Source of the DNA: Mobula hypostoma
Taxonomy: Eukaryota
Length of the DNA stretch: 64,000 nucleotides
Assembly (NCBI RefSeq): GCF_963921235.1
Contig: NC_086097.1
Location: 31,188,001-31,252,000 of the forward strand
Direction of reading: 5' to 3'
In this document: positions 19,140 to 64,000 of the stretch, one piece after another
How the letters are laid out: each line of letters opens with the position of its first letter
Position numbering within the stretch: position 1 is the stretch's first letter
Position numbers and translations under genes: made by a program
The notes under the pieces: model-generated
What the model saw: the letters and a program-made list of their open reading frames with translations, nothing else
What the model was told of the DNA's origin: nothing
Database searches by the model: none

Positions 19140-20320
19140 CTCCAAACCCAAGTTGTAGTCATAGGCCCCAGCTATGCCTACCTTTTTGTTGGTTATGTGA
19201 AACAGAACAGCCCTTTCTGATAATGCTTCCCAAGTATTCCTGTGCTACACTACTGATTGTATTGGTGCTGATTCATGCACCCATGCTGAGCTCGTCGATT
19301 TTGTCAACTTTGCCTCCAACTTCCACCTTTCCCTTAAATTAACTTGGTCCATTTCTGACACATCTCTCCCCCTTCTCCATCTGTCTCCCATCTCTGGAGC
19401 TTCACCCTGTGAAACTTGCAGCATCTTCAATGAGACTCGACCACCAAAGACACCTTTACTTCCTCTCACCCCCCCCCCCCCAATCTGCTTTCTGCAGGGA
19501 CCACTCTCACCTGTGATTCTTTGTCCATTTTTCCCACCCCACTAATCTTCTTCCGGGCATTTATCCCTACAAGTGGAAGATTTGCTATACCTGCCCATTC
19601 ACCTATCCCTCAGGCCACCATCCTTCCAGGTGAGGCAACACTGTTGAGGTTGCTTACTGCATCCAGTGCTCCCAATGTGACCTTCTCTACATTGATGAGA
19701 CCCAATGTTGATTGAAGGCTGCATTGTCAAGCACTTCTGTTCCATCTGACACAACCATGATTTCCTGGTGTCCAACCATTTTAATTCAAATCCCTATTCC
19801 CATTCCAACATGCAGGTCCATGGCCCCTCTCCTGCCACAATGAGCCTACTATCAGGTTGGAGAAGTAATGCCTCATATTCCAATTGGGTAGCCTCCAACC
19901 TGAAAGCACGAACATCGATTTCTCTAATCTATGGTCATTTCCCCCCCTCCCCTTCCCTCTTCTTTCTTTCCTCACTCTGGCTCCCCTCTTACCTCCTCTC
20001 AACTGTCTATCATACCCCTCTGGTGCCCTGCTCCTTCCCTTTCTCCCTTGGTCCATTTGCCTGTCCAATCAGATTCATTCTTCTTCAGCCATTTACCTTT
20101 TCCACCTATCATATCCCAGCTTCTCACTTCACTCCCCACCTGGCTTCACCTATCAGCTTCTAGCTTGTACCCCTTCTCCTCCCGCACCTTCTTATTCTGG
20201 CTACTCCCCTCTTCCTTTCCAGTTCTGATGAAGGGTCTCAGACAAAACGTCAACAGTTTATTCCTTTCTATAGATACTACCTGCCCCGTTGAGTTCTTCC
20301 AGCATTTTGTGTGTGTTAAA
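19140..20320 (+). mobile_element. Penelope-like retroelement relic (RT fragment, GIY-YIG endonuclease, 3' terminal repeat)
   Basis: GPSYAYLFVGYV RT motif, decayed LYI(G)ET and NHFNS...GSLQPESTNIDFSN endonuclease C-terminus, a pyrimidine-rich tail, then a degenerate CTGATGA hammerhead repeat at ~20221-20257. Confidence 0.8.
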
Positions 20321-21289
20321 GAGTGATGAGTCTTCACAGCCTGATGGCTTGCATTCCAAGATCCTAAAAGAGGGCTAAAAATATTGTGATTGTAATTCCC
20401 CAAAAACTCCATAGACTAGAGGCTTGGAAAATTGCCAATACTTGAAGGAGAGGAAGCAAAAAGCAGGTAATTACAGCAACAAGTACAAAATGCTGGAGGA
20501 AATCAACAAGTCAGGCAGCATCTATGGAGGGGAGTGAACAGGCATCGTTTCAGCCCAAGACTTCACCAGGACTGCAGGTAATTACAGGTTGATTTGCATA
20601 ATGTATTTTATCTGAACTATGTTAGAACCCATTATGAAACAAGTAATGCAATACTTGAAAAGTTGCAGTCTAACAAGGCTGAGTCAGCATGGGGGAAATA
20701 ACGCCTGATGGTTCAGGGCAAAACACAATCCGCTGGAGGAACTCAGTGGGTAGAGCAGCATCTGAGGGAGAAAGGAAATTGTCAACACTTCAGATCGAAA
20801 CCCAGCACCAACTGAGAGGGATATGATCTGAAACATCAACAATTCCTTTCTGCCTGCCCTAAGTTGCTGCTCAACCCGCTGACTTCCTCCAGCAGATATT
20901 TGTTACTCCAGATTCCAGCATCTGCAGTTTCTTATGTCTCCTGATGAATTACAGTTTTTAAAGGAGTAACAGCCAGGGTTGATAAAGAGGAACCAGTAGA
21001 TGTAAAATATTCGTATGTTCTATATGTTGAAAAAAATTGCTTCGTAAACCTCTTTAAACCTTTACCCCTCACCTTACACCAGTGCACTTTCGTATTTTAT
21101 ATTTCTACCTGGAAAAAATACACCATCAACCCAAAACTATGGAATTCCTTTACAGAGTTATAGTCACAAAGCAGACAAACAGGTCCTTTCAGCCCAACTC
21201 ATCCATGCCTCCTGAGAATCCCATCGAAGTCAGTCACATCTGCCCATGTTTGATCATATAAACTGCACATTGTATTACTGGGATTCCTT

Positions 21290-25501: not shown

Positions 25502-25612
<111 letters not shown>

Positions 25613-26841
25613 TTAAAAAAACGTTTTAAACATCTGAGCAACACACAAAAAACGCTGGAGGAACACAGCAGGTCAGGTAGCATCTATGGAGCAGGAAAAA
25701 AAAATCAATGTTTCAGGCCAGGACTTAGCAGGCCTTCATTTTCTTTTAAAGATGCTCTCAATTTCATTTTGATGAATGTTCAATTATCTTCTTGTACTTT
25801 CAGAAGAGTTATGAAACAAGCTGCCAGTTGAAATGCTTGAGGCAGATACAATAGTATCATTTGAGAAGCACTTGACAGGTACATGAAAGGCCAGGGCTTA
25901 GAGGGATATGAGCTAAATGCAGAAAACAGGGACTAGCTGGGTGGGCACCACGGTCAGCTTAGATTGGTTAGGCTGAATGGACTGTATTTTTACTATATTG
26001 TTTTATGACTCTAAAAGATGAGCTCAGGCCAAAATTCTACGTGTAGGTTACTGCTGCTGCTTTAAGTTCTACCAACATACAGCGAAACCATAAAATCCCC
26101 ACTTGTTCCACACAGGCTTCTCCCTATCCACCCTCTCCATTCTTTAGATTATAGGTTGAACCTCCTCCAATAACTCAGTTCAAATTAGCTGCTTCATCAA
26201 ACATTTCAGTACCGTTCTGTGTTGTGTTCTAACAGGGGACAGGGAATAGAAATGAAGGCCTCCTTCATCACACCTTTCCAATTCATCGCCCCCCAAAGAA
26301 ACCATGCAGATTTCTTCACCCTTGAAACACTCTGACTTGGTTCTCGAGTCTGTTACCATAGAAACAACCATGGTAACTTTGGCATAAAGCCATCAAAATA
26401 CAATAAAGACATTAAATGGAGCAGAAAATAAGAACACAGGAATCTGCAATGGCAGCATTTCTACTCTGTTCAGTGCCTTGCTTCTTTACAAGTACAGTGC
26501 CCACCACCACCTCTCTAACTATAGCACTTCTGAGAAAAAGATGGATACGATTTTTGTAAGTATTTCAGTGACAGAAAGTATTGTTAAGTCACATAGTATT
26601 CAGTCATTGCTGACAAGGCCAATGTTACAGAGACCTAAATTTCCTAGATAAGCTCTCCCATTGAAGGAGCGCCCAGCGTTGCCACAAAGGGACATAGTCA
26701 CATAGCTCCACAGTCAGGATGATGCACATTTTGAGGGACAATCTGCAAATGGTGATCCTCCCATGCAGTTCCTGCCCATCTACTTCGAGTGAGAGGTGAC
26801 GTTGAAGCCTTTGACAGACTGCTTAGTGCATCTTGCAAATA

Positions 26842-31289: not shown

Positions 31290-34200
31290 AATAACATAAG
31301 AGAAGACATAGGAGCAGAATTAGGTAATTCAGTCCATGAAGTTTGCTCCACCATTTGATCAAGGCTACTTCCCTCCTAACCCCATCCTCCTGCCTTCTCC
31401 CAGTAATCTTTCACACCCTGACTTATCAAGAAACTATCAACCTCCATCTTAAAAACACCCAATGACCTGGCCTCCACAGCTGCCTGTGGCAATAAATTCT
31501 AGATCTGCCCCCCTCTGGCTGAAGGAATTCCTCCTCATCTCCATTCGAAATGGACATCCCTCTATTCTGAGGCTGTGTTCTTTGGACTTAAAGACTCCCC
31601 CACTACAAAAACATGCTCTCTACATCCACCCTATCTTGGCCATTGAACATTCGATATGTTTCACTGAGATCCGCCTCATTGCTCTAAACTCCAGTGAATA
31701 CAGGCCCAGAGCCATCAAACGCTCCTCACATGATAAATTCTTCATTACTAAAATCATTTTTATAAACCTTCTTTGAACTCTCTCCAATGTAAGCACATCC
31801 TTTCTTAGCTAAGGGGCCCAAAACTGCTCACAATACTCTCAAATGAGGTCTCACCAATGCCTTATAAAGCCTCAGCATTACATTCTTGTTTTGATATTCT
31901 AGTCCTCTCAAAATGAATGCTAACGTTGCATTTCCCTTCCTTGCTACTGACTCAAACTTCAAGTTAACCTTGAGGGAGTCCTGCATAAGGACTCCCAATC
32001 CCTTTGCACCAAGGATTTTGGAATTTTCTCCCCAGTTAGAAAATAGTCTATGCTTTTGTTCGTTCTACCAAAGTTCATAACCATACACTTCCTGACACTG
32101 TATTCCATCTGTCACTTCTTTGCCCATTCTCCTAATTTATCTAGGTTCTTCTATAAGCTCCCTGCTTCCTTAACACTAGCTGCCCTTCCACCTTGTCATT
32201 TGTCTGCAGACTTGGCAACAAAACCAATAATTCCGTCATCCAAATCACTGACATACAATATATAAAAAGTCAGTGGAACACCACTAGTCACCAGCAACCA
32301 ATCAGGAAAGGTTCCCTTCAATTCCATCTTTGTCTCCTGCGAATCAGCCAATATTCTATCCACGTTTCTTTCTTATAATACCATGGGCTCTTATTTTGCT
32401 AAGCAGCCTCATGTGCAACACCTTGTCACAGGCCTCCTAAAAATCTAAGTACACAAATGCTTTGTCAATCTGTTTGTTACTTCTTCAAAGAATTCCAACA
32501 GATTTATAGAACATAGAACATAGAATAGTACATCACAGTACAGGCCCTTCGGCCCACAATGTTGTGCCGACCCTCCAACCCTGCCTCCCATATAAGCCCC
32601 CACCTTAAATTCCTCCATATACCTGCCTAGTAGTCTCTTAAACTTCACTAGTGTATCTGCCTCCACCACTGACTCAGGCAGTGCATTCCATGCACCAACC
32701 ACTCTCTCAGTAAAAAACCTTCCTCTAATATCCCCCTTGAACTTCCCACCCCTTACCTTAAAGCCATGTCCTCTTGTATTGAGCAGTGGTGCCCTGGGGA
32801 AGAGGCGCTGGCTATCCACTCTATCTATTCCTCTTATTATCTTGTACACCTCTATCATGTCTCCTCTCATCCTCCTTCTCTCCAAAGAGTAAAGCCCTAG
32901 CTCCCTTAATCTCTGATCATAATGCATACTCTCTAAACCAGGCAGCATCCTGGTAAATCTCCTCTGTACCCATTCCAATGCTTCCACATCCTTCCTTTAG
33001 TGAGGTGACCAGAACTGGACACAGTACTCCAAGTGTGGCCTAACCAGAGTTTTATAGAGCTGCATTATTACATCGCAACTCTTAAACTCTATCCCTCAAC
33101 TTATGAAAGCTAACACCCCATAAGCTTTCTTAACTACCCTATCCACCTGTGAGGCAACTTTCAGGGATCTGTGGACATGTACCCCGAGATCCCTCTGTTC
33201 CTCCACACTGCCAAGTATCCTGCCATTTACTTTGTACTCTGCCTTGGAGTTTGTCCTTCCAAAGTGTACCAACTCACACTTCTCCAGGTTGAACTCCATC
33301 TGCCAGTTCTCAGCCCATTTCTGCATCCTATCAATGTCTCTCTGCAATCTTTGACAATCCTCTACACTATCTACAACACCACCAACCTTTGTGTCGTCTG
33401 CAAACTTGCCAACCCAACCTTCTACCCCCACATCCAGGTCGTTAATAAAAATCACGAAAAGTAGAGGTCCCAGAACAGATCCTTGTGGGACACCACTAGT
33501 CACAATCCTCCAATCTGAATGTACTCCCTCCACCACCACCCTCTGCCTTCTGCAGGCAAGCCAATTCTGAATCCACCTGGCCAAACTTCCCTGGATCCCA
33601 TGCCTTCTAACTTTCTGAATAAGCCTACCGTGTGGAACCTTGTCAAATGCCTTACTAAAATCCATATAGATCACATCCACTGCACTACCCTCATCTATAT
33701 GCCTGGTCACCTCCTCAAAGAACTCTATCAGGCTTGTTAGACACGATCTGCCCTTCACAAAGCCATGCTGACTGTCCCTGATCAGACCATGATTCTCTAA
33801 ATGCCTATATACCCTATCTCCAAGAATCTTTTCCAACAACTTTCCCACCACAGACGCAAGACTCACTGGTCTATAATTACCCGGACTATCCCTACTACCT
33901 TTTTTGAACAAGGGGACAACATTCGCCTCCCTCCAATCCTCCGGTACCATTCCCGTGGACAACGAGGACATAAAGATCCTAGCCAGAGGCTCAGCAATCT
34001 CTTCTCTCGCCTCGTGGAGCAGCCTGGGGAATATTCCATCAGGCCCCGGGGACTTATCTGTCCTAATGTATTTTAACAACTCCAACACCTCCTCTCCCTT
34101 AATATCAACATGCTCCAGAACATCAACCTCACTCATATTGTCCTCACCATCATCAAGTTCCCTCTCATTGGTGAATACCGAAGAGAAGTATTCACTGAGG

Positions 34201-36450
34201 ACCTCGCTCACTTCCACAGCCTCCAGGCTCATCTTCCCACTTTTATCTCTAATCGGTCCTACCTTCACTCCTGTCATCGTTTTTTTCTTCACATAATTGA
34301 AGAATGCTTTGGGGTTTTCCTTTACCCTACTTGCCAAGGCCTTCTCATGCCTCCTTCTTGTTCTTCTCAGCCCCTTCTTAAGCTCCTTTCTTGCTTCCCT
34401 ATATTCCTCAATAGACCCATCTGATCCTTGCTTCCTAAACCTCAAGTATGCTGCCTTCTTCCACCTGACTAGATTTTCCACCTCACTTGTCACCCATGGT
34501 TCCTTCACCCTACCATTCTTTATCTTCCTTACCGGGACAAATTTATCCCTAACATCCTGCAAGAGATCTCTAAACATCGACCACATGTCCATAGTACATT
34601 TCCCTGCAAAAACATCATCCCAATTCACATCTGCAAGTTCTAGCCTTATAGCCTCATAATTTGCCTTTCCCCAATTAAAAATTTTCCTGTGCTCTCTGAT
34701 TCTATCCTTTTCCATGATAATGCTAAAGGCCAGGGAGCGGTGGTCACTGTCCCCCAGATGCTCACCCACTGAGAGATCTGTGACCTGACCCAGTTCATTA
34801 CCTAGTACTAGAACTAGTATGGTATTCCCCCTGGTCGGCCTGTCCACATACTGTGACAGGAATCCGTCCTGGACACACTTAACAAACTCTGCCCCATCTA
34901 AACCCTTGGAACTCATCAGGTGCCAATCAATATTAGGGAAGTTAAAGTCACCCATGATAACAACCCTGTTATTTTTGCACCTTTCCAAAATCTGCCTCCC
35001 AATCTGCTCCCCTGTATCTCTGCTGCTACCAGGGGGCCTATAGAATACCCCCAATAGAGTAACTGCTCCCTTCCTGTTCCTGACTTCCACTCATATTGAC
35101 TCAAAAGAGGATCCTGCTACATTACCCACCCTTTCTGTAGCTGTAATAGTATCCCTGACCAGTAATGCCACCCCTCCTCCCCTTTTTCCACCCTCCTTAT
35201 CCCTTTTAAAGCACTGAAATCCAGGAATATTTGACAGGCAAGATTCTCCCTTAAGGAAAAGATAGCATCTTCAGTCCTGTAGTCATCACCCTTTTCAATT
35301 TTGTTCGTTACACTGCATCTCATCTCCTGCCTGTCCTTCCTGACAGTCTCACTATACATCGCCTCTGCCTGTATACCAACTGGCCCATCCTCAGCCCCAT
35401 TACTCAGTTTCATCCCCCTGCCAAATTAGTTTAAACCCTCCCCAATAGCTCTAAGCAAACCTGTCCATAAGGATTCTGGCCTCCTTTGGGTTCAGGTGTA
35501 ACCTGTCTTTTTTGTACAAGTCATACCTTTCCCAGAAGAGATACCAATGATCCAGAAATCTGAAACCCTGCTCCAGCACCAGTTCCACAGTCGTGCACTT
35601 ATATGCCAAATCATTCTATTCTTACCCTCAGTGTTGCGTGAAATAAGCAGCAATCTGGAGAATACTACCCTGGAGGTCCTGCTTTTCAGTTTTCTACTGA
35701 GTTCCCTAAATTCTCTCTTCAGGACCTCCTCCCTTTTCCTACCCATGTCATTAACGCCCACATGTACCAAGACTTTTGGATTATCTCCCTCCCCCTTTAG
35801 AATGTCATGGACCCATCCAAGATGTTACTGACCCTGCACCTGGAAGCCAATATACCATCCGGGTGTCTCTATCACGTCCACAGAAGCTAGCGTCTTCTCC
35901 TCTAACTATGGAATCCCTTATCACTTCTGCAGTCCTCTTCTCCCCCTGTGCCTTCTGAGCCACTACGCCAGACTCAGTGCCAGAGACCTGATTGCTGCAG
36001 CTTCCCTCTGGGTGGCTCCCCACCCCCCACAATAGTATCCAAAATGGCATACCGATTCTTGAAAGGAATGGCCACAGGGGTACACCATACTAGCTGCTTT
36101 CCCTCTGCTTACAGTCACTCAAGATACCTGCCTCCTGCAACCTAGGGGTGAATACCTCCCTGTAACTCCTATCTATCCCCTCCTCAGTTTCCCGCATGAG
36201 CTGAAGACCATCAAGATGCAGCTCCATTTCCTTAACACATTCTCTGAGGAGCTACAGCTCAGTGCACCTGGTGCAGATGTGATTATCCCACATCTCCACA
36301 AAGAACACAACATAGCCCCTGGAATCATCCTCACTGCACTAACAGACAAAGAATGAATAAGAACATTACCAGGTACTTAGCTTGCCCAAGCCTATTCTCA
36401 TCGACGCCTGATGAGCCAAAGACTCCCCACTCTAACAATGGTACACTCAC
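31290..36450 (-). mobile_element. Older, internally deleted CR1 LINE retaining ORF1 (esterase) remnants at about 35450-36290
   Basis: (G)DSIVRG and VHVGVNDMGRKREEVLKREFRELSRKLKSRTSRVVFS SGNH-esterase ORF1 motifs; RT and 3' end at 31290-32505. Confidence 0.8.
32506..35228 (-). mobile_element. Young 5'-truncated CR1 LINE with near-intact ORF2 (APE endonuclease part + RT)
   Basis: 664-aa ORF 33096..35090 (GVFYRPP, MGDFNFP, SDH, DFSKAFDKVPH, GVPQGSVLGP, FADDTK) continues in frame through two stops into 32445..32987. 3' (TTCTATG)n tail; ATTT duplicated at 32502-32505 and 35229-35232. Confidence 0.95.
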
Positions 36451-39400
36451 ACAATGGCCACTCCACTTGTCCCTGTCTTATGTTTATTTGTTCTTAGTAA
36501 TGTATATTTGATTGGTGTGCTGGAAAATGCTGAAAGCTCGCAAAAGCTCCTTTTTAAAATCTCAGCAACACACATCAAAGTTGCTGGTGAATGCAGCAGG
36601 CCAGGCAACATCTCTAGGAAGAGGTACAGTCGACGTTTCAGGCTGAGACCCTTCGTCGAGTTGCCTCCTCTCTTGCTCTCGATTTGATTCAGCTACTGGA
36701 AAAACACCAAAAGCCCATAGACACTCCTTTTTAAAATCTCACTCGTGGAACTGTGAGTTGCCTCCTCTCTTGCTGTAATTTGATTGAGCCACCGGAAAAA
36801 CCATTGATCACTGTGGTCTCTCCTCCACTATTCAGAGATATTTACACAGTATGCTGCGCATGTACAGCCCTTAGCATTATCAATGATCCTTCCCATCCGT
36901 CCAATAATTTCTTTGAACCCCTACCATCAGGCAAGAGATATCACTGCATTAAGACAAGAACTTTTAGGGCTGGAAACAGCTTCCTCACTGAGGCTGTGAG
37001 ACGACCTAACTCCCTGCCACCAGCCCAGGTCTCATCACATATTAAGTGCCAGAGGCATTATACTATTTACTTTTTAACTTATATCATTACTGCACTTTAT
37101 TATTTGTTAATTTATTTGTGGTAGTATTACTTTACGTGTTGTGTGTGAATTATATGTACTATGTTGTGCAATTTGGTCAGGAGGAATGTTCTTTCATTTG
37201 ACAGTATGCATGACAATAAACTTGAACTTGAGCCATCTGCCATCAAGGATATCTTCAAAAGGTGATGCCCCAAGAAGGCAGCATCCATCGTGAAGGACCC
37301 TCACCATCCAGGACCATGCCTTTTGTCTTTATTACCATCAGGGAGGAGGTACAGGAGCCTGAAGACACACAGTCAATGTTTTTAAGAAGAGCTTTTTCCC
37401 CTCCAGAATCAGATTTCTGAATGCACCATGAATCCATGAACACTACCTCACTGCTTTGCACTCTTAATGTAATTTTTACATATTCTTGTTGTAATTAGTT
37501 ATTTTTCATATAATGTATTGTTGCTTCAAAACAACAAATTTCATTTCAGTGATAGTAAACCTGATTCTGATTCGGAGCTCTGTCTGAAAATATATGGTAA
37601 CACACCTTACCCCTAGAATGAGATTCAAACTCATTACGGTCTGACCAAAGGGTTAAAATGAACAGTAATGTACTGAAGAAATATTAGATTGTACCAAGTC
37701 AACAAGAGGATTGCAACGTTGGCAAAAGCTCGGCAGGTCAGGCAGCATATGTGGAGAAAGAAACAGAGTGAATGGCTCATGTGAAAGGCCCTTATCAGAA
37801 CTGGAAAAGTGATGAAACAAGTTAGTCTGAAGTTGCAACGTGGCTGGATGATGGGAGGTAGGGAATAGCTCTGATAGGGCGGTGCCAGGACTGCCATGTT
37901 GAAAAAGCCATCTGCTGGATAAATACATCAGAAAAAGAAACATGTGAAAATGCAGTTCAGAGCTACAGAAAATGCTCAGCAGACTGGGCACCATCAGTGG
38001 CAACACAGTAGCATAGCGGCTAGCGTAACAATTTTCAATGCTAGATGTAAGATCAGGGTTCAATTCCCACCGCTGTCTGAAAGGATTTTGTACATTCTCT
38101 GGTTTCTTCCCACAATCCAAAGATGTATGGGTTAGAGTTAGTGAGTTGTGAGCATATAACAGTGTTAAGCTAACTGCTACACGATTGTGCCACCTTCTAT
38201 ATTTAATGCCCTGACTCTGGTTAGGCTGTACTTGGGAGTACTGACTTATTTCTCCTCACCTCATTATAGGAAGGATGTGCAAGCTTTCGAGAAGGTGTGG
38301 AGGAGATTTACGAGTTTGTTGCCTGGAGAGAGGAGAGGTTGAGCAAGCTAGAGCTTTTCTCTTTGGAGAGAAGGAGAACACGAGGAGACTTGATAGAGGT
38401 GTATAAGATAATAAGCAGCATTGAAAGGATGGCCAGCGCGGATATGGCTAATACCGGGGGCAGCATAATTAGAGAAAAGTATGGGGGATGTCGGATATAT
38501 GATTTATTTTTTAAACGTAGAGTGGTGGGTGCTTGGTAGGGGTAATTACATTAGGGACATTTAAGGGACTCAGATAGGCACATGGATGAAAGAAAAATGT
38601 AGGGTTATGCAGGAGGGAAGGATTAGATTGATCTTAAAAGGTTGGCACAACATCATGGGCTGAAGGGCCTGTATTGTGCTGTAAGGTTCCATGAGGAGGA
38701 TAGAGAAATCATCATATTTCAAAATGTATCTATGAACATTTGATCTCCCATAACACACAGAGCTATGCACCGAGAGCTGGTTCTATTTTGATCAGGATTC
38801 ACAACGAGACCAAAGACTTCTTTTTGTGCCATGAATTTCTATAGGTTCACCAACGCCCACAGAAGAGCTGTCAAATAGACTGTAGGGTGTGTTTGTGTGT
38901 GTGTATTTATAAACAGAAAGTACAAAAAAGGGAAAATAATCCTGCTGATATGGGGCAGTATACAAGCTGCTCACTCAGGAGGAGCAGCTGGAAAGTCAAA
39001 AATAAACTGGGCACCAGCTGCATCCACGCAGAATTTACAAATACACTTGGTCAAGTTAAAATGCAAACAAATAGCAACCTAATTTAGCTCTCAACAGCTG
39101 CAAACCATTCAGCAGAAATAGGATTTAAAGGGAATCTAAAGGGCATGTTCTCACTGGAAGTGGAGTGGCTGCGTTTGATGGAGGTGGGCCAATATGTTAG
39201 CCTACTGAGCAGCTGAAATTTTCAGTCCCTGCAGCACTGGTGGCCCATACCTGCAGTGTGTCATATCGGTGAGATGTAATTCAGGAACTCTCCAGAGCTT
39301 CTAACAGCATATCCCTGCAGTTGAGATGATGAAGAAGCCTGTGCCTGCACTGAACCCTGGAGTACAATAAGCCATGGGCTCAGTAACAAACAGCATTCTT

Positions 39401-46408: not shown

Positions 46409-47755
46409 CAGGTTTCCCCCGTTATCCGAAAGTACAGCGTTCCTATGAAATGGTTCGTAAGCCGGAATGTCATAAAGTGAATAAGCAATTATCATTTATT
46501 TATATGGGAAAAATTTTTGAGCGTTCCCAGACCTAAAAATAACCTACAAAATCATGCCAATTAACACATAAAACCTAAAACAACAGTAACATATAGTAAA
46601 AGCAGGAATGATATGACAATACACAGCCTATATAAAGTAGAAATACTTTTCTGCAGCACCGTCTAGCGCAGCGAAAATCTCGCGGAAGCGCTCTCGGCAG
46701 AAACACTCTCTCCAGTAACCTTTAAGCTATGAAGCTGCCAAATCATACCAAATAACACATAAAAATACACAGCCTATATAAAGTAGAAATAATGTATGCA
46801 CAGTGTAGTTTCACTTACCAAAATTGGGAAGACTCTAATAAATTGCAGTTTCGTCACAGTTAAACACTTGCTTATACAAATAAGCACCTGACGCAATCGG
46901 TAATTTCCTCTGATCTGGGCCAACATTTACGTGCCGGGCGGCACCAAATTAATTAGCTTGTTTATTTTGGCTTTTTTCTTAAAGATGTGCTGGGTGCATT
47001 CCGACTGCTGCTGCACCCCTGCATTCTTCGCAGCAATGTACCGGTCCGCAGCCCTGAGTTTGGGGACCACTGCTTAAGCTATGAAGCTGCCCTCGCCTCA
47101 GAAACCCATCAAACCACCCATAACCTTTAAATTCCACTTTCGCAACACTTTCATCACCATCGTCCAGTGTTTTCTGTTTCAGCTTATTAAAGAGACTGAC
47201 TGATTTCTCCTTAAGTATAAGAAAACTTAACGGAACACCACACTTTGTACACCCATCAATCCACTCAAGCAACAGACTTTCCATTTTATCCATTATTGGA
47301 TGCCGACTAAGAGAGACCACTTTGCTATGAGCAGAACCAACAGTAACATTGGCAGCTTTCAAAATTCTTTCTCTCTGCGTATAAATAGTGCGAATGGTGG
47401 ACGCAGGCAAGTTTAACGCGCAGACAATATCCTTACTTCGTTCACCACAATCAAAGTGCTTAATTATGTCTAGTTTTATGTTAAGTGTAACACCCTTACG
47501 AGCTCTTTTAGGCTTTTTCGATACCTTAGAACTCATCTTGCTAACGGATGCACAAAATAAATAGAGATAAAGCACGCGTTCAAGCAATGCCGGCTAGAAT
47601 TTAGTTCCGGGGGAGGAGCTTGGCTGTTCGGGCGCGTGCTGCCTTTTCTTGTAACAGTGAAAACACCTTCTGTTAGCGAAAACAGGTAACTAATGTAGGT
47701 CTTTCATAACAGCGAGGTGTCGTAAAGCGAACGTTCAGAAAACAGGGGCCACCTG
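46409..47755 (-). mobile_element. Tigger/pogo deletion derivative with both TIRs and TA TSD
   Basis: TA|CAGGTTTCCCCCG ... GGGGCCACCTG|TA, inserted in a CR1 3' fragment. Same family as 26842-27895. Confidence 0.88.
46979..47536 (-). CDS. Truncated Tigger transposase ORF (185 aa): psq-type HTH + CENP-B HTH, no DDE domain
   Basis: MSSKVSKKPKRARKGVTLNIKLDIIKHFDCGERSKDIVCALNLPASTIRTI...MESLLLEWID...GVPLSFLILKEKS...FKGYGWFDGFLRR, open throughout. Expression unknown. Confidence 0.5.
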   Translation of the reverse strand: MSSKVSKKPKRARKGVTLNIKLDIIKHFDCGERSKDIVCALNLPASTIRTIYTQRERILKAANVTVGSAHSKVVSLSRHPIMDKMESLLLEWIDGCTKCGVPLSFLILKEKSVSLFNKLKQKTLDDGDESVAKVEFKGYGWFDGFLRRGQLHSLSSGPQTQGCGPVHCCEECRGAAAVGMHPAHL

Positions 47756-48867: not shown

Positions 48868-48899
48868 CTGCAGCAGGTCACTGAGATCCAACAACATAT
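48868..48899 (-). CDS. BRF1: BRF1 internal coding exon, 32 nt (equivalent to human exon 4)
   Basis: Minus strand reads ...ttcaag|AT ATG TTG TTG GAT CTC AGT GAC CTG CTG CAG|gtacgt = (H)MLLDLSDLLQ, the BRF1 first cyclin-fold segment. AG/GT boundaries; phase-0 join to the next exon. Confidence 0.93.
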
Positions 48900-49504: not shown

Positions 49505-50205
49505 TCAAGGGCACAATATTACCACCTCCATACTGGGAAGACCTGACGTAGATTGGGAGACTGCTTTGTCAAGCACCTTTGCTAGGATAGACACAAAAGG
49601 TTGGATCTCCCAGCGGCCAGCCATTTCAATTCCACTTCCCATTCCCATTCTGACATGGTGGTCCATAGCCTCCTCTACTGCCACGGTGAAAACACATTCA
49701 GTTTGGAGAAGCAATACTCATATTCCATCTGGGAGCCTCAAGCCCGATGGCATGAACATTGATTTCTCCAACTTCTGTTAATTTTTACCCACCACTTTTT
49801 TTCTTTATCAGTTGCCCGTTTTGCTCTTACTTCTTCCCTTTTCCTCACCTGCCCATTGCCTCTCTCTGCTGCCCCTCCTCCTTCCCTTTCTCCCACAGAC
49901 CACCCTCCTCTCCTTTCAGATTCCTTCTTGAGCCCAATATCTCTTCAGCTCCTTAGTTCATCCCTCCCTTACTCACCCAGCTTCCTCCTCACCCAGTCTC
50001 ACGTGCCAACTTGTACTCCTCCTGCTCCCTACACCTCCATGCTCTGACTTCTGCTCAATTCCTTTACAGTCCTGATGAAAGGTCGTGGCACAGAATGTTG
50101 ACTGTTTATTACCCTCCATCGATACTGCCTGACGTGCTGGGTTCCTTCAGCATTTTGTGTGTGTTACTCTAGATTTCCAGCGTCTGCAGAACCTCTTTTG
50201 TTTAC
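49505..50205 (+). mobile_element. Penelope-like element 3' fragment
   Basis: GSLKPDGMNIDFSNF endonuclease end, pyrimidine tail and terminal repeat with degenerate cagtcCTGATGA. An antisense relic lies at about 51300-52300. Confidence 0.78.
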
Positions 50206-53200
50206 AATTTGCTACATAAATGCTGTGTTTCCCCATATTTAAACAAGGGCATAGTTTGAAAGGGTAAGATCCCAGTCCGTGTTTCTAATGGAATCCTACA
50301 TAACTCCATCGCTGCTCCAGAATGAAAAACAAGCTTTTGTTCTCTTGGTGTCCTTCAACAGTCATTCACCCGCACAGTTCGGACAAATCGAAACAGATTG
50401 GAGATAGATCATTTCTACATTTAACAGCAGTGCCCTGTACTTGTTTCTGAAAAGAACAAGAGCCACTCTGTGTTATATTTACACTTAAATAAAGAGAGGA
50501 ATCACACAGGCACCCGAGAGAGCCCAGCAGCTCAATCACATTTCCTTCTGGGTTCTTTGTCATAATAACTCTCACAAGTGAGCTGTTCTTGAACATCAAA
50601 TTCAACACAAGAGTGCACAAAGATATTTAACCACAGTGGCAACACATTTAAACCCACTGTAGTTCCCTCTAGACTACTCACTCACCTTCTTCCCAACAAA
50701 CCTCCCCCTCTGCACCACCCCCCCAGCATCAGGGTACAATTCCCTCCCCGTGACTATGTGGGTTTCTTCTGGGTGCTCTGGATCCCTCTCACACTCCAAA
50801 GTTGTGCGGGTCAGGGTTAGTGGGTTGTGGGCATGCTACGTTGAGTCCAGCAGCATGGTGACACTTGCAGGATGCCCCAAACACATATTCAGACTGTGTT
50901 GGTCATTGATGCAAAGCAATACATTTCACTGCACGTTCTGATATACTGTACATATAGCAAATAAAGCTAATCTTTAAATCTCCCCCTACCCAAAGGTGCA
51001 ATCATTTCAGCTTCTAAAAGAGGGTAATTTGCAGTAGTCAATTAATCAATTAATAATTGGTCAATCAGTGTCAATCTGCATGTCTTTGGATAGTGGGAAG
51101 AAGTCCATACAGTCACAGGAGGAACATGCAAACTCCATAAAGACAGCACTAGAGGTTAGGACTGAACCGAGTCCCTGGAGCTGTGAGGCAGTGGATCTAT
51201 CAGTGACGCCACTGTGCTTCCCTGACTAATTTAACAGCAAAGGTTATAAAGTTTTAGGTAAATGGTCTCCATCCACAAACAGCAACCGTAAGATAGTCAA
51301 GCCACAAAGAAATTACCAGAGGAACTCAGCAGGTTGGTCAGACAGCATGCCTACGAAGGGAAATGGTTAATATTTTGGGTTGAAAGCCTTTGTCTGGATT
51401 CAGAGATGACAGCAAGTATAATGGTGAGGGGCAGGTATGGAGCAAGAGCTGGCAGGTGTCGGGCAGGTCTGTAGCGGTAGTTACAAGTAACCTGCTTCCC
51501 CTTGAACCCACACCTCCAATTGGTGCTATGGGTAAAATGAACTCAACCTCTCAATTTCAGTGACTATATTTTCAATGAAGTTCTCTGGACAAGAAGTACA
51601 TACCTAGTTTTTCTTCTTTCTCAAGAATGGGTGATATAGTGGTAGTTAATAATGTTACTCTTATGCCACTCAGTTAGTCACTCACACATGAGAGGAGTTC
51701 ACATACTACACAAGCAGGATTGTCAACAAAGTTCAGTTGAGTATCCTGCATGCTGGCATCCAGGTGTGCTCTGCACTATCCCACAGTGACAAACACAACA
51801 CTGTGTCAGAAGGTAATAGGCAAATGAAGGAGTAGAGTCTGGGAACGGCGACAGAAGCTGGGAGGTGAGAGGTGTAGGCAACAAAAGAGAGTAGGATCTG
51901 ATAGAAGAGGAAGGTGGAGAGTGGAACCGAACAGGGGAGGTGGGAACAGTGGCAGGGAGAGGTACCCAATGGGAGGACTGCGTGAGTGATAGACAGATGG
52001 AGTGGGTAGAGGAAGAGAAAGAAACAGGGTGATTGGGGGTGTGGAGGTACTTGAGTGGGTATAAAATGAATTGAATAGATCAGGAAGACAGAGAAAGGGA
52101 CAGATGGGGGAAGCAGGTTACCTGAAACTTGAGAACTCAATATTCATGACATCAGGTTGTAAACCACCCAAGCAGAATACGAGATGCTGTTCCTCTAGTT
52201 GGAATTGAGCCTCTCCCAGCACTAGAGATCGAAGACAGACAGGTTAGTACAGAAATGAGGGGGTGGGGGTTAAAATGGTTGGGAACCAGGAACTCCAGAA
52301 GACTATTAGATGGAACACAGGTGCACAAGAGACTCTGCAGAAGGTGGAAATCCAGAGTAACATGCACAAAATGCTGGAAGAACTCAGCAGATAAAGCAAC
52401 ATCTGTGTAATTAATTGATGTTTTGGGCTGAGACCCTTCATTAGGAAAGAAAGGAAGAAGAAACCAGAACAGGTACAAAGCAGTTGGACTCCTGATGCAG
52501 GAAATTTTACAGCCAATTGATATCAAAAGGTACTGGGTTACCAATATGAGTATTTTTGAATGCCCTGCCATTGAGAAGGTTGAGAGCTTCAAGTTCTTTG
52601 GAGTGAACATCACCAAAGTCTGTCCTGGTTCAACCACGTACACGCCACAGCCAAGAAATCTCACCAGCACCTCTACTTCCTCAGGAGGCTAAAGAAATTT
52701 GGTATGTCCCCTTTGACTTTCATATATTTTGTTGATATACCACAGAAAACCTCTTATCTGGACCCATCACAGGTTGATATGGCAACTAGTTTGCCTGAGA
52801 ACACAAGAACACAAGAACACAGCTCAGCACATCACAGAAGCCAGTTTCCCCTCCATGGACTCTGTCCACACTTCTGGCACTCCTTGGTAAAGCAGTCAAC
52901 ATAATCAAAGATCCCCATCCACTCTGGACATTCTCTGTTCCCCCTCTCTCATCGGGCGGAAGACACAAACGCCTGAAAGCACGTACCATCAGGATCAAGG
53001 GCAGCTTCTGACTCACTGTTGAACAGTCCCTTAGTTTGATAAACTGGACTTGACCTCACAATCAACCTCATTACAGCTTTGCACCTTACTGTCTGCCTGC
53101 ACTGTACTTTCTCTGTAGCTATTACACTTTATTCTACACTCCATTGTTTTACCTTGTATTACTTCAGTACACTGTTTAATGATTTGTCTGTATGGACAGC

Positions 53201-56200
53201 TGTATGCAAGTGTTTCACTGCACCTCAGTATATCTGACAATAATAAACCAACGTACCACTCTTCCTTCCTTTCAACTCTGCTCACGAGGAATAACCATGG
53301 CACTACAGGATGTCAATAAAAGGGTTAATGCATTCGGGTAGAGAATCAGAATTGTGGCAGAGGTGGGGAGTTAACAGTTGGCTTAGTGCCACGAAGACGT
53401 TTCATTAATTACTTCTTTCTTCAATGGATATGGTGTAACCACAAACCCACTGACTTTTTTTTTAAACATACTTCAAAAACCTGAGTAGAAATTTTAAAAT
53501 AGATTTAAAAACGTTTTATAGATTCTTTTACAAAGAAACATTTTTTAAAGGCTTTACCAATTCAGAATCACTTTGATAATTCCTGAGGTCCTCCTTCATG
53601 TCACAGGCAAAAGGTTTTAGTTTTTCTCAAAAGCAAGCAACTCTCTACAAGAAGAACATGCTTTCTTCAGGCCATGTGAAATGAGCAACCACACCTATGC
53701 TCAACGATGTGACCCCTGGCACCAGGTAACTCACTCATAGATCCATTTTTGGCCAATGCAAATATTATGATCATGAACACAAAAGATTCTGCAGATGATG
53801 GAAATCCAGAGCAACACACGTACACAATACTGGAGGAACTCAGCAGGTCAAGCAGCATCTACAGAGGGAAGTAAACTGTCAAAGTTACAGGTCAAGAAGG
53901 GTCTTGGCCTGAAATGTCAAAAGTCAAAGTAAAATGTACAGGTTAGGGTTAGTAAATTGTTGGGGTTCGGGTTACAGGTTAGGATTAGTACATTGGCACT
54001 GGAAGCGTGGCGACTCTTACAGGCTGCTCCAGGCACATCCTCAGATTGTGTTGTTTGTTCACGCAAACAATGTATTTCACTGTATGGTTCAATGTCCACT
54101 TGAAAAATAAAGCTAATCTCTTTAATCTTTTACTGCACTGAAGCGTCAGTTTAGATTCCATCATGAGTCTGTGGATTGTGGCTTGAACTCATGATCACTT
54201 GGTTCAGAGGGGAACACATTTTCAAGTGATTCAAATCAACACAAAGTATTGAGAACAAACACTCCCCTTTTGGAACCATTCTTGAGGAGATTTTTGGATG
54301 AACAGGGAGAAAAGAAAAGGAATTTCATTTTGCACCAACACCAGAGATTCTGTAGATGCTGGAAATCCAGAGCAACACACAAAAAATGCTGGAGGAACTC
54401 AACAGGTCAGGCAGCATCTATGGAGAGGAACAGTCGACGTTTCAGGCCAAGACTCTTTACCAGGACAGATTATTTTGATTAAAAACAAATTAGTGAAGAT
54501 ATTTGCGATAGTGTAATTATCTGCTGCTGTGCCAATTATTTTCTCTATACCTTGTCCGATTATATAAAAAAGTTTTTAAAAAAAATTAGATTCTGCCGTT
54601 CCCAGCATTAAATCCAGTTCTTTATCCCATCAGACGAAGCACAGGAATATAAAATTTACTGATAGGAGCAAGTTTTCATGGAGTTTACAGTAGAGTCTGG
54701 AGTTCAAGACTCTAAATTATAACATCCAGCTGTGGTAAATCAAAGGAACAATTTCAACAGCAACTTGCTTTGCAGCCCTGTATCTTAAACCAGTTTCTCG
54801 TCTGTGAGTCAGATCTAATGGCTTCCATTCGTTCATGCTTCAGAACCACAATTATCAGGATTCCACGCTGTGGTAACATGCTTAACAAGACTTAAAATAG
54901 TTCAGATCTGACGACAATAAAACCCACTGGAGAAATCAGGATATAAGCCGGATTCAAGTTGAGGCAGGCATGTCAGCTATTTAAATCTTAAATTACTTCC
55001 CAACTTCCACCATTCGTTGAGATTAAGGCTCATCATTTATCTCAGTACCACTTTCCTGCACTGACTGCATCCGCTTAATATTCACAATAGGTAGATGTTA
55101 TAAACCAGAGAGACCTGGGGTAAAGTGGGGGCACGGGTAGATAAGGTGGTGAAAATGGTGTCTGACAGGATGGCCTTCATCAGTCAGGGAACTGAATACA
55201 AGAGTAGGTACCATACAAAATTTAAAGATTTACTCTATTTGTCACATGTACATCAATGCATACAGTGATATAGGTCATTTGCATCAACAACCAACACAGT
55301 TCAAACATGAACTATGGGTACCCACAACTGTCGACATGCTTCCAGTATCAACATAGCATGCTTTAACCCTTACATCTTTGGAACGTGGGAGGAAACCCGA
55401 AGGAAATTCACACAGTCACGGGAGAATGCACAAACTCTTTATAGTCAGCAACAGGAATTGAACTCCAATTGTTGATCACTGATGCTGTAAAAGCATTACC
55501 CTAGCCGCTACACTACCATGCAAGACTTTAGGAAGACTACAATTAGTGTCTTGTGCACAGTTCTGATTGCCTAATTCCTTAACAAGGAATGAATCTGGTG
55601 AACCTTCATTACAATCTTTCTCTCACTGTATTAGAAGACCAACACAGTAAGAGAAATACTCACCAAAACCCTATGTAATTTCAGTCAGGCATCTTGTTTT
55701 CAAATCCTCTCATAATAAAGGCCAACATACCATTTGCCGACTTTGAGTGGTAATTGGAAAAAGGCGGCAGATGGATTCATGGTGCACTTATCCAATTCTC
55801 AGCCATCATCACTGACACATCTTTCCAAAGCATTAAGACCATAAAACACAGGAGCAGAATTATGTTATTCAGCCCATCAAATCTGCTCCCCATTTAATCG
55901 TGGCCGATTTTCTTTTTAAATCCCATTTTCCCACATTGTCCCATAACTTTAAATCCCTTACCAATCAAGAACCTACGACAGTGTGTACAGCTCCAACCCC
56001 ATGTACAAGTTGGCTGATGACACCACTGTTGTGGGTTGTATCAAAGGGGGTAATAAATCTGCATACAGGAGGGAGACTGAAAACTTGGCTGAGTGGTGTA
56101 ATAACGATAACCTCTGACTCAGAGTCGAGGAACTGATTGTAGATTTCAGGGGAGGGAAACCAGAGGTCCATGAGCCAGTAATCATCAGAGGATCTGAGAT

Positions 56201-60995: not shown

Positions 60996-62557
60996 CATTT
61001 ATTTATTTTTTTTACCAACCATTGCTTTGAGGAGGAAATTAATTTTTTTAAATACAGCCTGAAAACTGCACAATACTTTAAATGTTCTTATGTAATATGC
61101 ATACTAATATTTATTTCATTCTAAATATGAATATTTAGAATGAAAAATTTAAAATCACATTATAATTTATTTATTAATTGAAGGGCATAATGAAATAGAG
61201 CACCAAGAAAATCTTTCACATTTTGTAAACCTTTTCCTCATCTGCATTTTATTATAAATCTATTGTCTATTAACACTGTCCAGATTAATTTTGCATCCAG
61301 ATGAAAGATATCTGTTTCTCGATTTACATTTGACTGAATTCATAAAACCAAATCCACATTTACGGTCAGCACTAGAAGCTTGATATGTTCCAGCGGTGTC
61401 AACAAGAATTAACAGTTCTTCAAATCTTTCATTTCTAAGCATATAGTTCAAATATCAGTGAATGTCTTAATTTAACCAGTCTTAACTTTCTCAGAAACAA
61501 CATATTTGAAATCATATTATTGCTACGATATTTTTGAGGTGATGCTTTTGTTGTAGTTCGTAATAGCTGAGTGTTTTTTTAATCAGTCAACAACATTCTC
61601 TTTTCCAGATTCTCTTAACTCATTGCCAGGAAATCTATTATCCAAGTGATTATACACACGTTGATTGAATCAAGTAATAGCTGCAATATTGACGTCAGAA
61701 CTCATAGATGCAAACAGATCTTTCACAATGTTACTCCAATAAACAATATTGCCAAGATAATGTGAGCATAACTTGTTAATTTTTGCTTTTGCATACTGCA
61801 GTGCTTCAATTGTATTCAAACAGCTTTTCAGTAGGAATCTACAAAGAGATTGCAGATCTCCTAAAACATCGTTAATGCTACTCAATATGGTGGATTGATC
61901 AAAATCTTCAGTTGATGATTTGGATCGTTACATTCATTAACTTGTTTTTTGCAATACAGGATCAAAACTTCGTAATTCCTTACAAAAATGTAATGGCAAA
62001 ATGTCTTGACTGCCATTCTATTTTGTTTAGTGGCCTAAATGACACGACAACACATTCTGTGATATTAGCTCATTCTTCTAGCTTTCTTTTTCTTAACCAA
62101 TGATCTGCTGAACAATGTATACACTGCTTGTAACAATGTTGTAACTTGAAACACAGACAATGTAAATACTGTAAACACAAGGAAATCTGCAGATGCTGGA
62201 AATTCAAGCAACACACACGGTGGAACGCAGCAGGTCAGGCAGCATCTATAGGAAGAGGTACAGTCGACGTTTCGGGCATTTTGTGTGTGTTGAATGTAAA
62301 TACTATATGTTGAATGTAAATACTATATTTCAAAGTAAAGATTGTGGTATATTTATTATTAAGGATTATATTCATTAACATAATTATTTACAGGGTATTT
62401 CACAATTATATTAACATAGATATTAAAATTATATTAATTAATTTCAATATTACATAATTATATAGAAGAAAATTCCAGCTGTGCAGCAAAGGCTACGTGC
62501 AGGGGAGCATTGCAATTACTGCGCAACCATGCATCCTGCAGCTCAGAGAGAACAATG
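60996..62557 (-). mobile_element. Decayed hAT-superfamily DNA transposon
   Basis: Minus-strand relics IHCSAD (HCxxH-like), FRPLNKIEWQSRHFAI (RW-like) and QASSADRKCGFGFMNSVKCKSRNR (hAT dimerisation-like). 8-bp TSD CTTCTGGC/CTTCTGGG at 60988-60995 and 62558-62565 splits a V-SINE. Confidence 0.75.
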
Positions 62558-63586
62558 CTTCTGGGGCCAATATAGCATGCCTACAACTTACTAAGCCACA
62601 TGTCTTTGGAATGTGGGAGGAAACTGGAGCATGCAGAAGAAACCCACATAGTCACAAGGAAAACATACAAACTCCTTACATACACTGGTGGGAATTGAAC
62701 CCTGTTCGCTGGAGTTGTAAAGTATTGTACAAAGTGCTATTTTACTCTGCCTTCTTCATAACCCTGTCTACCTAAGACACTATTAGCTAAATCTGTGAAC
62801 TTTCTTGCACAGGTGCAGAGGGTCACTAGGAATCCTCAAAGTTACAGTGTAGATGCATATATTATCCAGTTTGCTCCAAAGAAAAACACCCTAGCTTTAT
62901 CAACCTTTTCTCATAAGCCCTGGCTCCAGCACTTCGAACTTCCCGGCGCACCCCTTGCACATCTCCATCATGCTCATGTACGCAGGAGCCAGGATGGTCA
63001 CCTGTTCCCCACCAGGCTCCTGTAGCAAGATAGACAGTAAATCCTTTGGGAAGAGGAAGAGAAGAGAAGGCAGAGTTAATGGTAGAGACCTTTAACTTCT
63101 CCCAAGCATCCTCATCTAGATCAAAGCTCTCCCTACCTGGTCCAGAAACTGTGGGGAATCCTGGGGATATCAAGGACACCTTCGGGTATCAAGAAGGCAA
63201 CATCCATCATGAAGGTCCCTCCCCATCCAGGGTGTGCCCTCTTCGCATTACTACCACCAGGGAGGAGATGCAGGAGTCTGAAGACTGACACTCAATGTTT
63301 TAGGAACAACTTTTTCCCCACCGCCATCTAATGTCTGAATGGTCCATGAACACTAACTTGTTATTCATCTTTTGCGTTTTATGCATTGCACAAAACAACA
63401 AATTTCACAACATACGTCAGTGATAGTAAGCATACTCCTGATTCAGACAGTCACAACTTCTTACAGAAGAGTAGTCTGTGAGGTCAAATGCAAGAGGCTG
63501 CAAAGAATAGCAGGCACAGCCCTCCCCACTACTGGCTGCATCTACAGGTGACACTGCCTCAGACAGGCAACATCTATCACCAAGTA

Positions 63587-63809
63587 ACACACATCAAAGT
63601 TGCTGGTGAACGCAGCAGGCCAGGCAGCATCTATAGGAAGAGGTGCAGTCGACGTTTCAGGCCGATACCCTTCGTCAGGACTACGAAGGTCTCGGCCTGA
63701 AACGTCGACTGCACCTCTTTCTATAGATGCTGCCTGGCCTGCTGCGTTCACCAGCAACTTTGATGTGTGTTGCTTGAATTTCCAGCATCTGCAGAATTCC
63801 TGTTGTTTG
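63587..63809. mobile_element. Penelope-derived fold-back (hairpin) element with 16-bp TSD
   Basis: Near-perfect inverted repeat about 63581-63776; CATCTATCACCAAGTA at 63571-63586 and 63810-63825. Confidence 0.9.
63646..63682 (-). ncRNA. Minimal type I hammerhead ribozyme motif
   Basis: Minus strand AGTC-CTGACGA-AGG gtatcgg CCT-GAAA-C-GTC-GACT(G): complete CUGANGA/GAAA/GUC core, stem I AGTC:GACT, stem II AGG:CCT, vestigial stem III. Confidence 0.7.
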
Positions 63810-64000
63810 CATCTATCACCAAGTACTGTATTCCCCAACATCCAGGTCATGCCATCTTCTCACAGCTACTATTGGGCAGGAGGTACAGAAGTCCAGAATC
63901 CCACATTACCAGAGTTGAGAAACAGCTACTTTCCTACAACCATAAGGTTCTTGAACTGATCTGCACAACTAACCAGCAATAGAACAGTATTTCTTGCATT

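What the first reader, a model, noticed from the sequence alone, without database searches (positions are those of the whole stretch)
63571..63825. Young non-coding hairpin retroelement carrying an intact hammerhead ribozyme core
Seen: a 223-bp insert with a perfect 16-bp TSD. It is a near-perfect fold-back with about 95-bp arms, retains its CpGs, and on the minus strand reads AGTC CTGACGA AGG-loop-CCT GAAA C GTC GACT. The opposite arm has lost its CTGA core. Known: Penelope-like elements carry minimal hammerheads with almost no stem III that are thought to cleave as dimers, and non-autonomous ribozyme-bearing retroelements (retrozymes) exist. Inference: this is a recently active, protein-free parasite of Penelope. 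The intact motif is on the strand transcribed as BRF1 pre-mRNA, so a potential self-cleavage site and a long dsRNA lie in an essential gene's intron.
Basis: partly seen in the sequence, partly recalled or inferred. Interest (0 to 1): 0.75.

Follow-up and report, generated by a model that had tools for sequence, protein, structure and literature searches.

The report
Penelope stub folded back at hammerhead
This hairpin in a BRF1 intron is one of thousands of stub insertions of an ordinary protein-coding Penelope-type jumping gene, and its ribozyme is predicted to be locked shut; the one notable point is that such stubs pile up at the ribozyme's front edge, likely where the copied RNA begins.

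Summary
In detail: a 223-bp insert, 16-bp TSD, 89-bp stem and a minimal hammerhead core on BRF1's strand. The interpretation mostly does not. The insert is two head-to-head copies of the 3' end (pLTR) of an autonomous ~3.5-kb Penelope-like element; intact 1,043-aa RT + GIY-YIG frames exist, and the tail 34-mer occurs 33,950 times. The inverted arm lacks the 38-bp tail, the described PLE insertion signature. A sample of 245 copies forms a continuum of lengths, and 28 window-like hairpins show 22 different joints, so each was likely built at its own insertion rather than copied as a unit. The hammerhead would need about 44 kcal/mol to escape the hairpin, and its core decays like its flanks. Side result: 65 of 348 arm ends fall in 6 nt at the first bases of hammerhead stem I (18-fold enrichment; genome-wide 32% loss across that step against 11% in a control), with no clear peak at the cut site. 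The copied RNA likely begins there, uncleaved. The scan noted this hotspot before in other shark-like genomes; my nine literature searches did not find it.

The parts
63571..63586 (+). Left target-site duplication (16 bp). Its last 6 bases complement the element RNA at the start of the tail (5 of 6 matched plus one T.G wobble), a possible priming microhomology (inferred).
   Evidence: D2; inverted repeat I1 extends to 63581; sequence
63587..63682 (-). Inverted, tail-less copy of the PLE pLTR, from -135 (first base of hammerhead stem I) to -40, counted from the element's 3' end
63647..63682 (-). Minimal type I hammerhead motif: 4-bp stem I, CUGACGA, stem II, GAAA-C-GUC, no intramolecular stem III; predicted cut between 63651 and 63650; predicted to be buried in the hairpin
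63683..63809 (+). Direct 5'-truncated copy of the pLTR, from -128 to the 3' end; starts inside the hammerhead core; joined to the other arm over 1 shared base
63772..63809 (+). 38-bp PLE 'tail', present on one arm only; in tandem full-length copies it runs straight into the ORF start
63810..63825 (+). Right target-site duplication (16 bp)
48868..48899 (-). 32-bp BRF1 exon, the nearest one found downstream of the insert (14.7 kb away); host context
   Evidence: located with short BRF1 motifs recalled from memory, consistent
25507..25579 (-). 73-bp BRF1 exon; host context

Best explanation
The insert is a dead-end, head-to-head pair of 3'-end copies of an autonomous Penelope-like retrotransposon, likely made in one insertion by two separately primed reverse-transcription runs that both stopped near the first base of the hammerhead, likely the 5' end of the copied RNA. 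Shown: identity with the element's pLTR, tail on one arm only, TSD, continuum of lengths, the end hotspot, and that neither arm can be a copy of the other in most insertions. Inferred steps: (1) the GIY-YIG endonuclease nicks both strands 13-16 bp apart; (2) one nick primes at the tail end and the other about 35-40 nt further in, the two start sites seen in vitro for the Anolis element; (3) both cDNAs come from the same RNA or the same source locus; (4) both run off an uncleaved RNA that begins at about -135, most likely a start site of the pLTR's internal promoter (about 0.5 for this step alone); (5) the two cDNA 3' ends are joined by short microhomology or a few filler bases. In BRF1 pre-mRNA the copy would form a long inert hairpin.
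For: The longer copies carrying the same tail run into an RT + GIY-YIG frame. 8 of 20 selected near-full-length copies have open frames over 1,000 aa, and 4 of 20 the whole 1,043 aa starting in an upstream pLTR. 245 copies: 103 inverted, 68 simple, 74 longer than 515 nt; insert lengths 64 to 4,442 bp. The inverted arm starts at -29 to -48 in 91 of 103, matching the tail described in PMC8557442 and PMC11167929. The inverted arm reaches further 5' than the tailed arm in 50 of 103 and the reverse in 24 of 103. Arms of one insertion differ at 11 of 280 subfamily-diagnostic positions against 43% between insertions, while other positions differ 1.9% against 2.3%, so later homogenisation is not the cause. 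Hotspot: 65 of 348 ends at -132 to -137, rate ratio 18 against -60 to -120; 21 of 134 in the first set and 44 of 214 in the second; 10 of 32 clean simple truncations. Genome-wide, 64,082 falls to 43,761 (68%) across -135 to -142, against 37,506 to 33,375 (89%) across -157 to -164. One full-length copy's 5' pLTR starts at -135 (L145/L332). The pLTR holds the promoter in D. virilis Penelope (PMC2377424), and TTAGTCC fits the initiator consensus YYANWYY (consensus recalled).
Against: No RNA 5' end was mapped, so step 4 is untested. No clear cap-derived extra G: by eye 5 of 12 inverted arms ending at -135 carry it, and 3 of those are microhomologies. The same bases also look like a 3' splice site (branch-like CTCAC or TACTAAC, pyrimidine tract, AG), and in D. 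virilis an intron ends at helix I (PMC4209133). Only 1 of the 6 tandem copies has its 5' pLTR starting at -135. Arm ends are correlated (Spearman 0.51; 29 of 103 within 5 nt against 13.8 in shuffles), and 6 of 68 outside the hotspot zone are symmetric, so a minority may be snap-backs. The RT and GIY-YIG Pfam hits are below the curated cut-offs.
Confidence: 0.85

Rival explanations
1. A discrete non-autonomous hairpin family (retrozyme-like) that is transcribed and copied as a unit by Penelope proteins.
For: A DNA search returned 40 of 40 scored candidates with the full 223-bp layout at 92-100% identity. Some joints recur: one 5 times and one 3 times among 28. About 3,900 window-like hairpins are estimated (28/245 x 33,950).
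Against: ranks by likeness to the query, so it selects that layout. The tail-anchored sample shows a continuum and 22 distinct joints in 28 hairpins. Recurrent joints sit on 1-3-nt microhomologies and occur in different subfamilies. The insert is a single head-to-head unit with a minimal hammerhead, not a tandem array.
Confidence: 0.07
2. Same element, but the -135 hotspot has another cause: splicing factors bound on a 3' splice site block the RT, or a 5'-to-3' exonuclease trims read-through RNA up to the protein-bound hammerhead. This addresses step 4 only.
For: Branch-like motif at -150, pyrimidine tract and AG at -135/-134; a second cluster of ends at -146 to -151 (16 ends); a pyrimidine tract and CAG sit at the same place in other PLE families of this genome; an intron ends at helix I in D. 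virilis (PMC4209133).
Against: No shared upstream exon sequence at the 5' joints of clean truncations, where the TSD abuts. The -150 A also fits an initiator, and the AG is needed for stem I pairing anyway.
Confidence: 0.35
3. The hairpin arises by snap-back: one cDNA folds on itself and is copied (self-priming, as proposed in PMC3846280).
For: Some insertions are near-perfect palindromes at the joint; 6 of 68 outside the hotspot zone are symmetric within 5 nt; arms share subfamily variants.
Against: In 50 of 103 the tail-less arm holds sequence that the tailed arm lacks, up to hundreds of bases. In the window copy each arm has sequence missing from the other. Later deletion at hairpin centres could mimic small asymmetries only.
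Confidence: 0.1
4. The intact hammerhead cleaves BRF1 pre-mRNA, or the hairpin has a regulatory role.
For: All core bases are intact on the BRF1 sense strand; without the other arm the fold costs only 4-5.8 kcal/mol; the Anolis PLE hammerhead cleaves when its protein is present (PMC11167929).
Against: Cost of 43.5-45.3 kcal/mol in the hairpin, with the blocking arm transcribed first. Minimal hammerheads showed no monomer cleavage and low dimer cleavage (PMC4209133); 1 of 9 Xenopus dimers cleaved (bioRxiv 10.64898/2026.07.22.740005). Core and non-core positions decay alike: non-CpG 0.6% against 0.8%, p = 0.51; CpG 4.6% against 6.1%, p = 0.46.
Confidence: 0.03

Closest known systems
Insertion unit of EN+ Penelope-like elements: 5' truncation, adjacent inverted pLTR, 30-40-bp tail (PMC8557442, PMC3846280, PMC8969392; passages seen)
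   Same: Inverted 5'-truncated copy next to a direct copy, tail on one end only, TSD, partial tandems in full-length copies, single RT + C-terminal GIY-YIG ORF that starts in the pLTR.
   Different: Both copies are cut down to pLTR size, and their ends pile up at the first bases of the hammerhead; those passages report no such hotspot.
Minimal type I hammerheads of metazoan PLEs (PMC4209133; results and discussion read)
   Same: Short stem I, bulged base before stem II, palindromic 15.2-16.2 with no stem III. The paper already notes pairs of motifs 100-700 bp apart on opposite strands, probably truncated PLEs.
   Different: Stem II is short here (3-4 bp) and position 11.1 is U rather than C in 129 of 132 copies. 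No cartilaginous fish is named in the parts read.
Poseidon element of Anolis carolinensis, PAc (PMC11167929; main text read)
   Same: Two adjacent internal RT start sites that bound the tail, extension of both DNA strands, uncleaved RNA as the main template.
   Different: This element has a C-X4-C-X2-C linker between RT and EN, so it is likely Neptune or Nematis rather than Poseidon (no tree built). Its ORF starts in or just after the tail, not in stem II.
Non-LTR retrozymes (PMC7229834, passages; bioRxiv 10.64898/2026.07.22.740005, parts 1-3 of 5)
   Same: Short, non-coding, hammerhead-bearing, related to PLE pLTRs, long TSDs.
   Different: Those are head-to-tail tandem repeats that yield circular RNA; this is a single head-to-head insert with one intact minimal motif.

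Membership tests
EN+ Penelope-like element | Single ORF with telomerase-like RT and C-terminal GIY-YIG endonuclease in the parent element | tested here: met
   1,043-aa frames with DKG, YIDD, CCHH and GIY-YIG-type motifs; Pfam RVT_1 E about 5e-5 and GIY-YIG E about 6e-4, both below the curated cut-offs
EN+ Penelope-like element | pLTR from partial tandems; inverted 5'-truncated copy; 30-40-bp tail at one end | tested here: met
   inverted arm starts at -29 to -48 in 91 of 103
EN+ Penelope-like element | Hammerhead motif within the pLTR | tested here: met
   -135 to -100 of the element
Neptune/Nematis clade | CX2-5CxxC zinc-finger-like linker between RT and EN (PMC8557442) | tested here: met
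   C-X4-C-X2-C present in the intact frames
Neptune/Nematis clade | RT phylogenetic placement | not tested
   No reference RT set was fetched and no tree was built
Non-LTR retrozyme | Head-to-tail tandem units, each with a complete type I hammerhead | tested here: not met
   Single head-to-head insert with one intact motif
Non-LTR retrozyme | Expression as self-cleaved linear and circular RNA | not testable with these tools
   Only assembled contigs of runs guessed to be RNA were available
Discrete non-autonomous family (SINE- or MITE-like unit) | Fixed ends and a fixed internal structure inherited between copies | tested here: not met
   22 joints in 28 hairpins; continuum of lengths
Minimal type I hammerhead | Conserved core C3-A9, G12-A15.1, U16.1-H17 with stems I and II | tested here: met
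   no Rfam hammerhead model matched at E <= 1
Minimal type I hammerhead | Self-cleavage (as a dimer or protein-assisted) | not testable with these tools
   Needs an in vitro assay; no clear excess of copy ends at the cut site (8 ends, rate ratio 2.1, p = 0.055)

The most novel reading that the evidence does not exclude
A short, uncleaved, capped RNA that starts at the first base of the hammerhead, made from the pLTR promoter (including from ORF-less stubs), is the main template of this Penelope family; each integration copies it twice, once from each nick. The thousands of stubs would then be a base-resolution in vivo record of PLE transcription start, twin priming and joining, with the hammerhead marking the RNA's 5' end rather than cutting it.
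Probability: 0.3. Interest if true: 0.55.

Novelty: new member of a known kind. Interest (0 to 1): 0.27.

Why it matters
The locus itself is ordinary: one of an estimated 3,900 or more similar hairpin stubs, with no sign of an effect on BRF1. The family matters a little more. PLE integration and the role of the PLE hammerhead are open questions (PMC8557442, PMC11167929). Here a young family with intact ORFs and tens of thousands of copies gives precise predictions: the template's 5' end lies at -135, cleavage is not used, and both arms come from one source. Each can be tested with 5'-end mapping and the published in vitro assay.

Tried and rejected
Rfam: no hammerhead family matched; 4 miRNA-hairpin matches below gathering score were rejected as generic hairpins. 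The open frame at 62900-63040 had no Pfam match and was not treated as a BRF1 exon. The 30 loci suggested a fixed layout but are selected for likeness, so they were left out of all counts. A hotspot at the predicted cut site was not significant (p = 0.055; 6 of 134 ends in set 1, 2 of 214 in set 2). Run search: no RNA holder listed; 22 runs, all kept as contigs. Laying four of them on the pLTR-ORF junction showed no start site and no joint with GT..AG ends among the 15 shown (110 not shown). Laying four on the left flank gave no contig across the insertion site, so empty-site polymorphism, editing and circular RNA stay untested. The sequence look-up in earlier findings returned nothing. Nine paper searches found no description of this family or of the hotspot; Repbase and Dfam could not be searched and no supplements were read, so either may already hold the family.

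Full report
Observation. The feature is real and placed as stated. A perfect 16-bp duplication (63571-63586, 63810-63825) encloses 223 bp with an 89-nt, 97% inverted repeat. The minus strand folds at -185.9 kcal/mol, z = -23. It carries a minimal type I hammerhead at 63682-63647, with the predicted cut after 63651. BRF1 lies on the minus strand around it: TFIIB-repeat hits flank the insert at C1:31349222 and 31179387, the BRF1 domain lies further on, and exons sit at window 48868-48899 and 25507-25579. The insert is 14.7 kb from the nearest exon found. The genome is 3.5 Gb; the repeat resembles those of sharks and rays (recalled, not tested).

What it is. A search with the insert returned 40 of 40 scored candidates with the same layout, but that search ranks by likeness. 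I therefore sampled by the 34-base tail alone, which occurs exactly 33,950 times. Among the first 95 tail-bearing copies on contig 1, inserts ran from 64 to 4,442 bp, and the longer ones continued into a reverse transcriptase and GIY-YIG frame (Pfam hits below the curated cut-offs). The unit is about 3.5 kb, and in tandems the tail runs into the ORF start. Of 20 near-full-length copies chosen for likeness to one young copy, 8 have frames over 1,000 aa and 4 the whole 1,043 aa. A C-X4-C-X2-C linker points to the Neptune or Nematis clade (PMC8557442); no tree was built. The insert is thus the element's own 3' end twice: an inverted copy from -135 to -40 and a direct copy from -128 through the tail. 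This inverted, tail-less arrangement is described for PLEs (PMC8557442, PMC3846280, PMC8969392; passages seen), and PMC4209133 already mentions pairs of minimal hammerheads on opposite strands 100-700 bp apart.

Not a unit-copied family. I enlarged the sample with copies chosen by the bases after the tail. Of 247 tail occurrences, one failed alignment and one duplicate were dropped. The 245 left comprise 103 inverted, 68 simple and 74 long copies; the inverted arms of the long ones were not scored, a few inverted copies were misfiled as simple, and one tandem insertion counts twice. TSDs were found in 143 of 171 short copies, 138 of them 11-17 bp. Window-like hairpins were 28 of 245, with 22 different joints. 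Joints show microhomology in 45, blunt joins in 11 and extra bases in 47 of 103. The inverted arm reaches further 5' than the tailed arm in 50 of 103, so it cannot usually be a copy of that arm. The two arms still share subfamily variants (11 of 280 mismatches against 43% between insertions) without sharing private ones (1.9% against 2.3%; 48 pairs). The best reading is two cDNAs primed at the two nicks on one RNA or one source locus. The inverted arm starts at -29 to -48 in 91 of 103, which fits the two RT start sites bounding the tail in vitro (PMC11167929, main text read). Against this, arm ends are correlated and a few joints are symmetric, so snap-back may explain a minority.

The hotspot. 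65 of 348 arm ends lie at -132 to -137, 42 of them at -134 and -135, the first bases of stem I; the rate is 18 times that at -60 to -120. The interval was chosen after seeing the first set (21 of 134); the second set repeated it (44 of 214), and so did simple truncations with an abutting TSD (10 of 32). Whole-genome counts agree: 68% of pattern matches survive an 8-base extension across -135 to -142, against 89% across -157 to -164. The predicted cut site shows no clear excess (8 ends, p = 0.055). An RT blocked by the fold should stop on its 3' side, so a template that begins at -135 is the simplest reading (inference). A promoter start is most likely: D. virilis Penelope has its promoter in the pLTR (PMC2377424, passages), TTAGTCC fits the recalled initiator consensus, and one full-length copy starts there. 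But no cap signature is clear, and the same bases resemble a 3' splice site, as at helix I in D. virilis (PMC4209133). The available runs were contigs and could not decide.

The ribozyme in BRF1. Forcing the hammerhead fold costs 43.5-45.3 kcal/mol in the hairpin and 4-5.8 in the sense arm alone, and the blocking arm is transcribed first. Across 132 copies the core decays like other positions (p = 0.51 non-CpG, p = 0.46 CpG). Minimal PLE hammerheads showed no monomer activity and low dimer activity (PMC4209133, results read); the Anolis one needs its protein (PMC11167929). Cleavage of BRF1 pre-mRNA is therefore unlikely. The long double-stranded RNA would be real if the intron is transcribed, but an estimated 3,900 or more similar hairpins exist in this genome.

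Novelty. The element is a new member of a known kind, and the structure is a described insertion product. It fails the retrozyme test of tandem units (PMC7229834, passages; bioRxiv 10.64898/2026.07.22.740005, parts 1-3 of 5). Nine searches found no report of the end hotspot; Repbase, Dfam and supplements were not seen. Four earlier scan notes on other shark-like genomes reach the same reading; I read them after my own tests and do not count them as support. One of them files its element near Poseidon, whereas this one has the Neptune-type linker.

Verdict. Observation confirmed, interpretation partly supported; the locus is ordinary, and the family-wide hotspot is a modest, testable clue to PLE mechanism. 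The rival confidences address different sub-questions and do not sum to one. Interest 0.27.

Noticed in passing
window 15142-16203 (+): 354-aa open frame with BTB, BACK and PHR domains: a BTBD6-like gene nested antisense within BRF1 (gene name and the human arrangement are recalled).
   Followed up: partly
window 1496-1630, 5988-6048, 11055-11148, 20221-20573, 25637-25738, 36564-36657, 50067-50203, 52334-52439, 53786-53918, 54337-54466, 62173-62277: About eleven older or shorter stubs of related Penelope pLTRs in the same 64 kb; two appear by eye to end at the same stem I edge (near 54466 and 20573).
   Followed up: partly
element positions -146 to -151 (e.g. L119, L140, L319): Second, weaker cluster of ends (16 of 348) at an A that fits both an initiator and a branch point; one subfamily reads TACTAAC there.
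   Followed up: partly
L102 (G000:C1:3874210-3879650): A hairpin joined through hammerhead stem I itself (arms end at -135 and -103), which would leave an intact core in the loop of a long stem I on the tailed strand.
   Followed up: no
L334, L335, L347, L349: Tandem copies with an uninterrupted 1,043-aa frame; candidates for still-active source elements.
   Followed up: partly
window 33099-35090 and 32448-32996 (-); 46982-47593 (-): A long CR1/L2-type LINE frame (664 aa and 183 aa) and a 204-aa frame resembling a Tigger/pogo transposase N-terminus (family names recalled, not tested).
   Followed up: no
L026 and L027 (G000:C91:57883852 and 57903754): Two identical insertions with identical flanks 20 kb apart: a local duplication or an assembly duplicate.
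   Followed up: no
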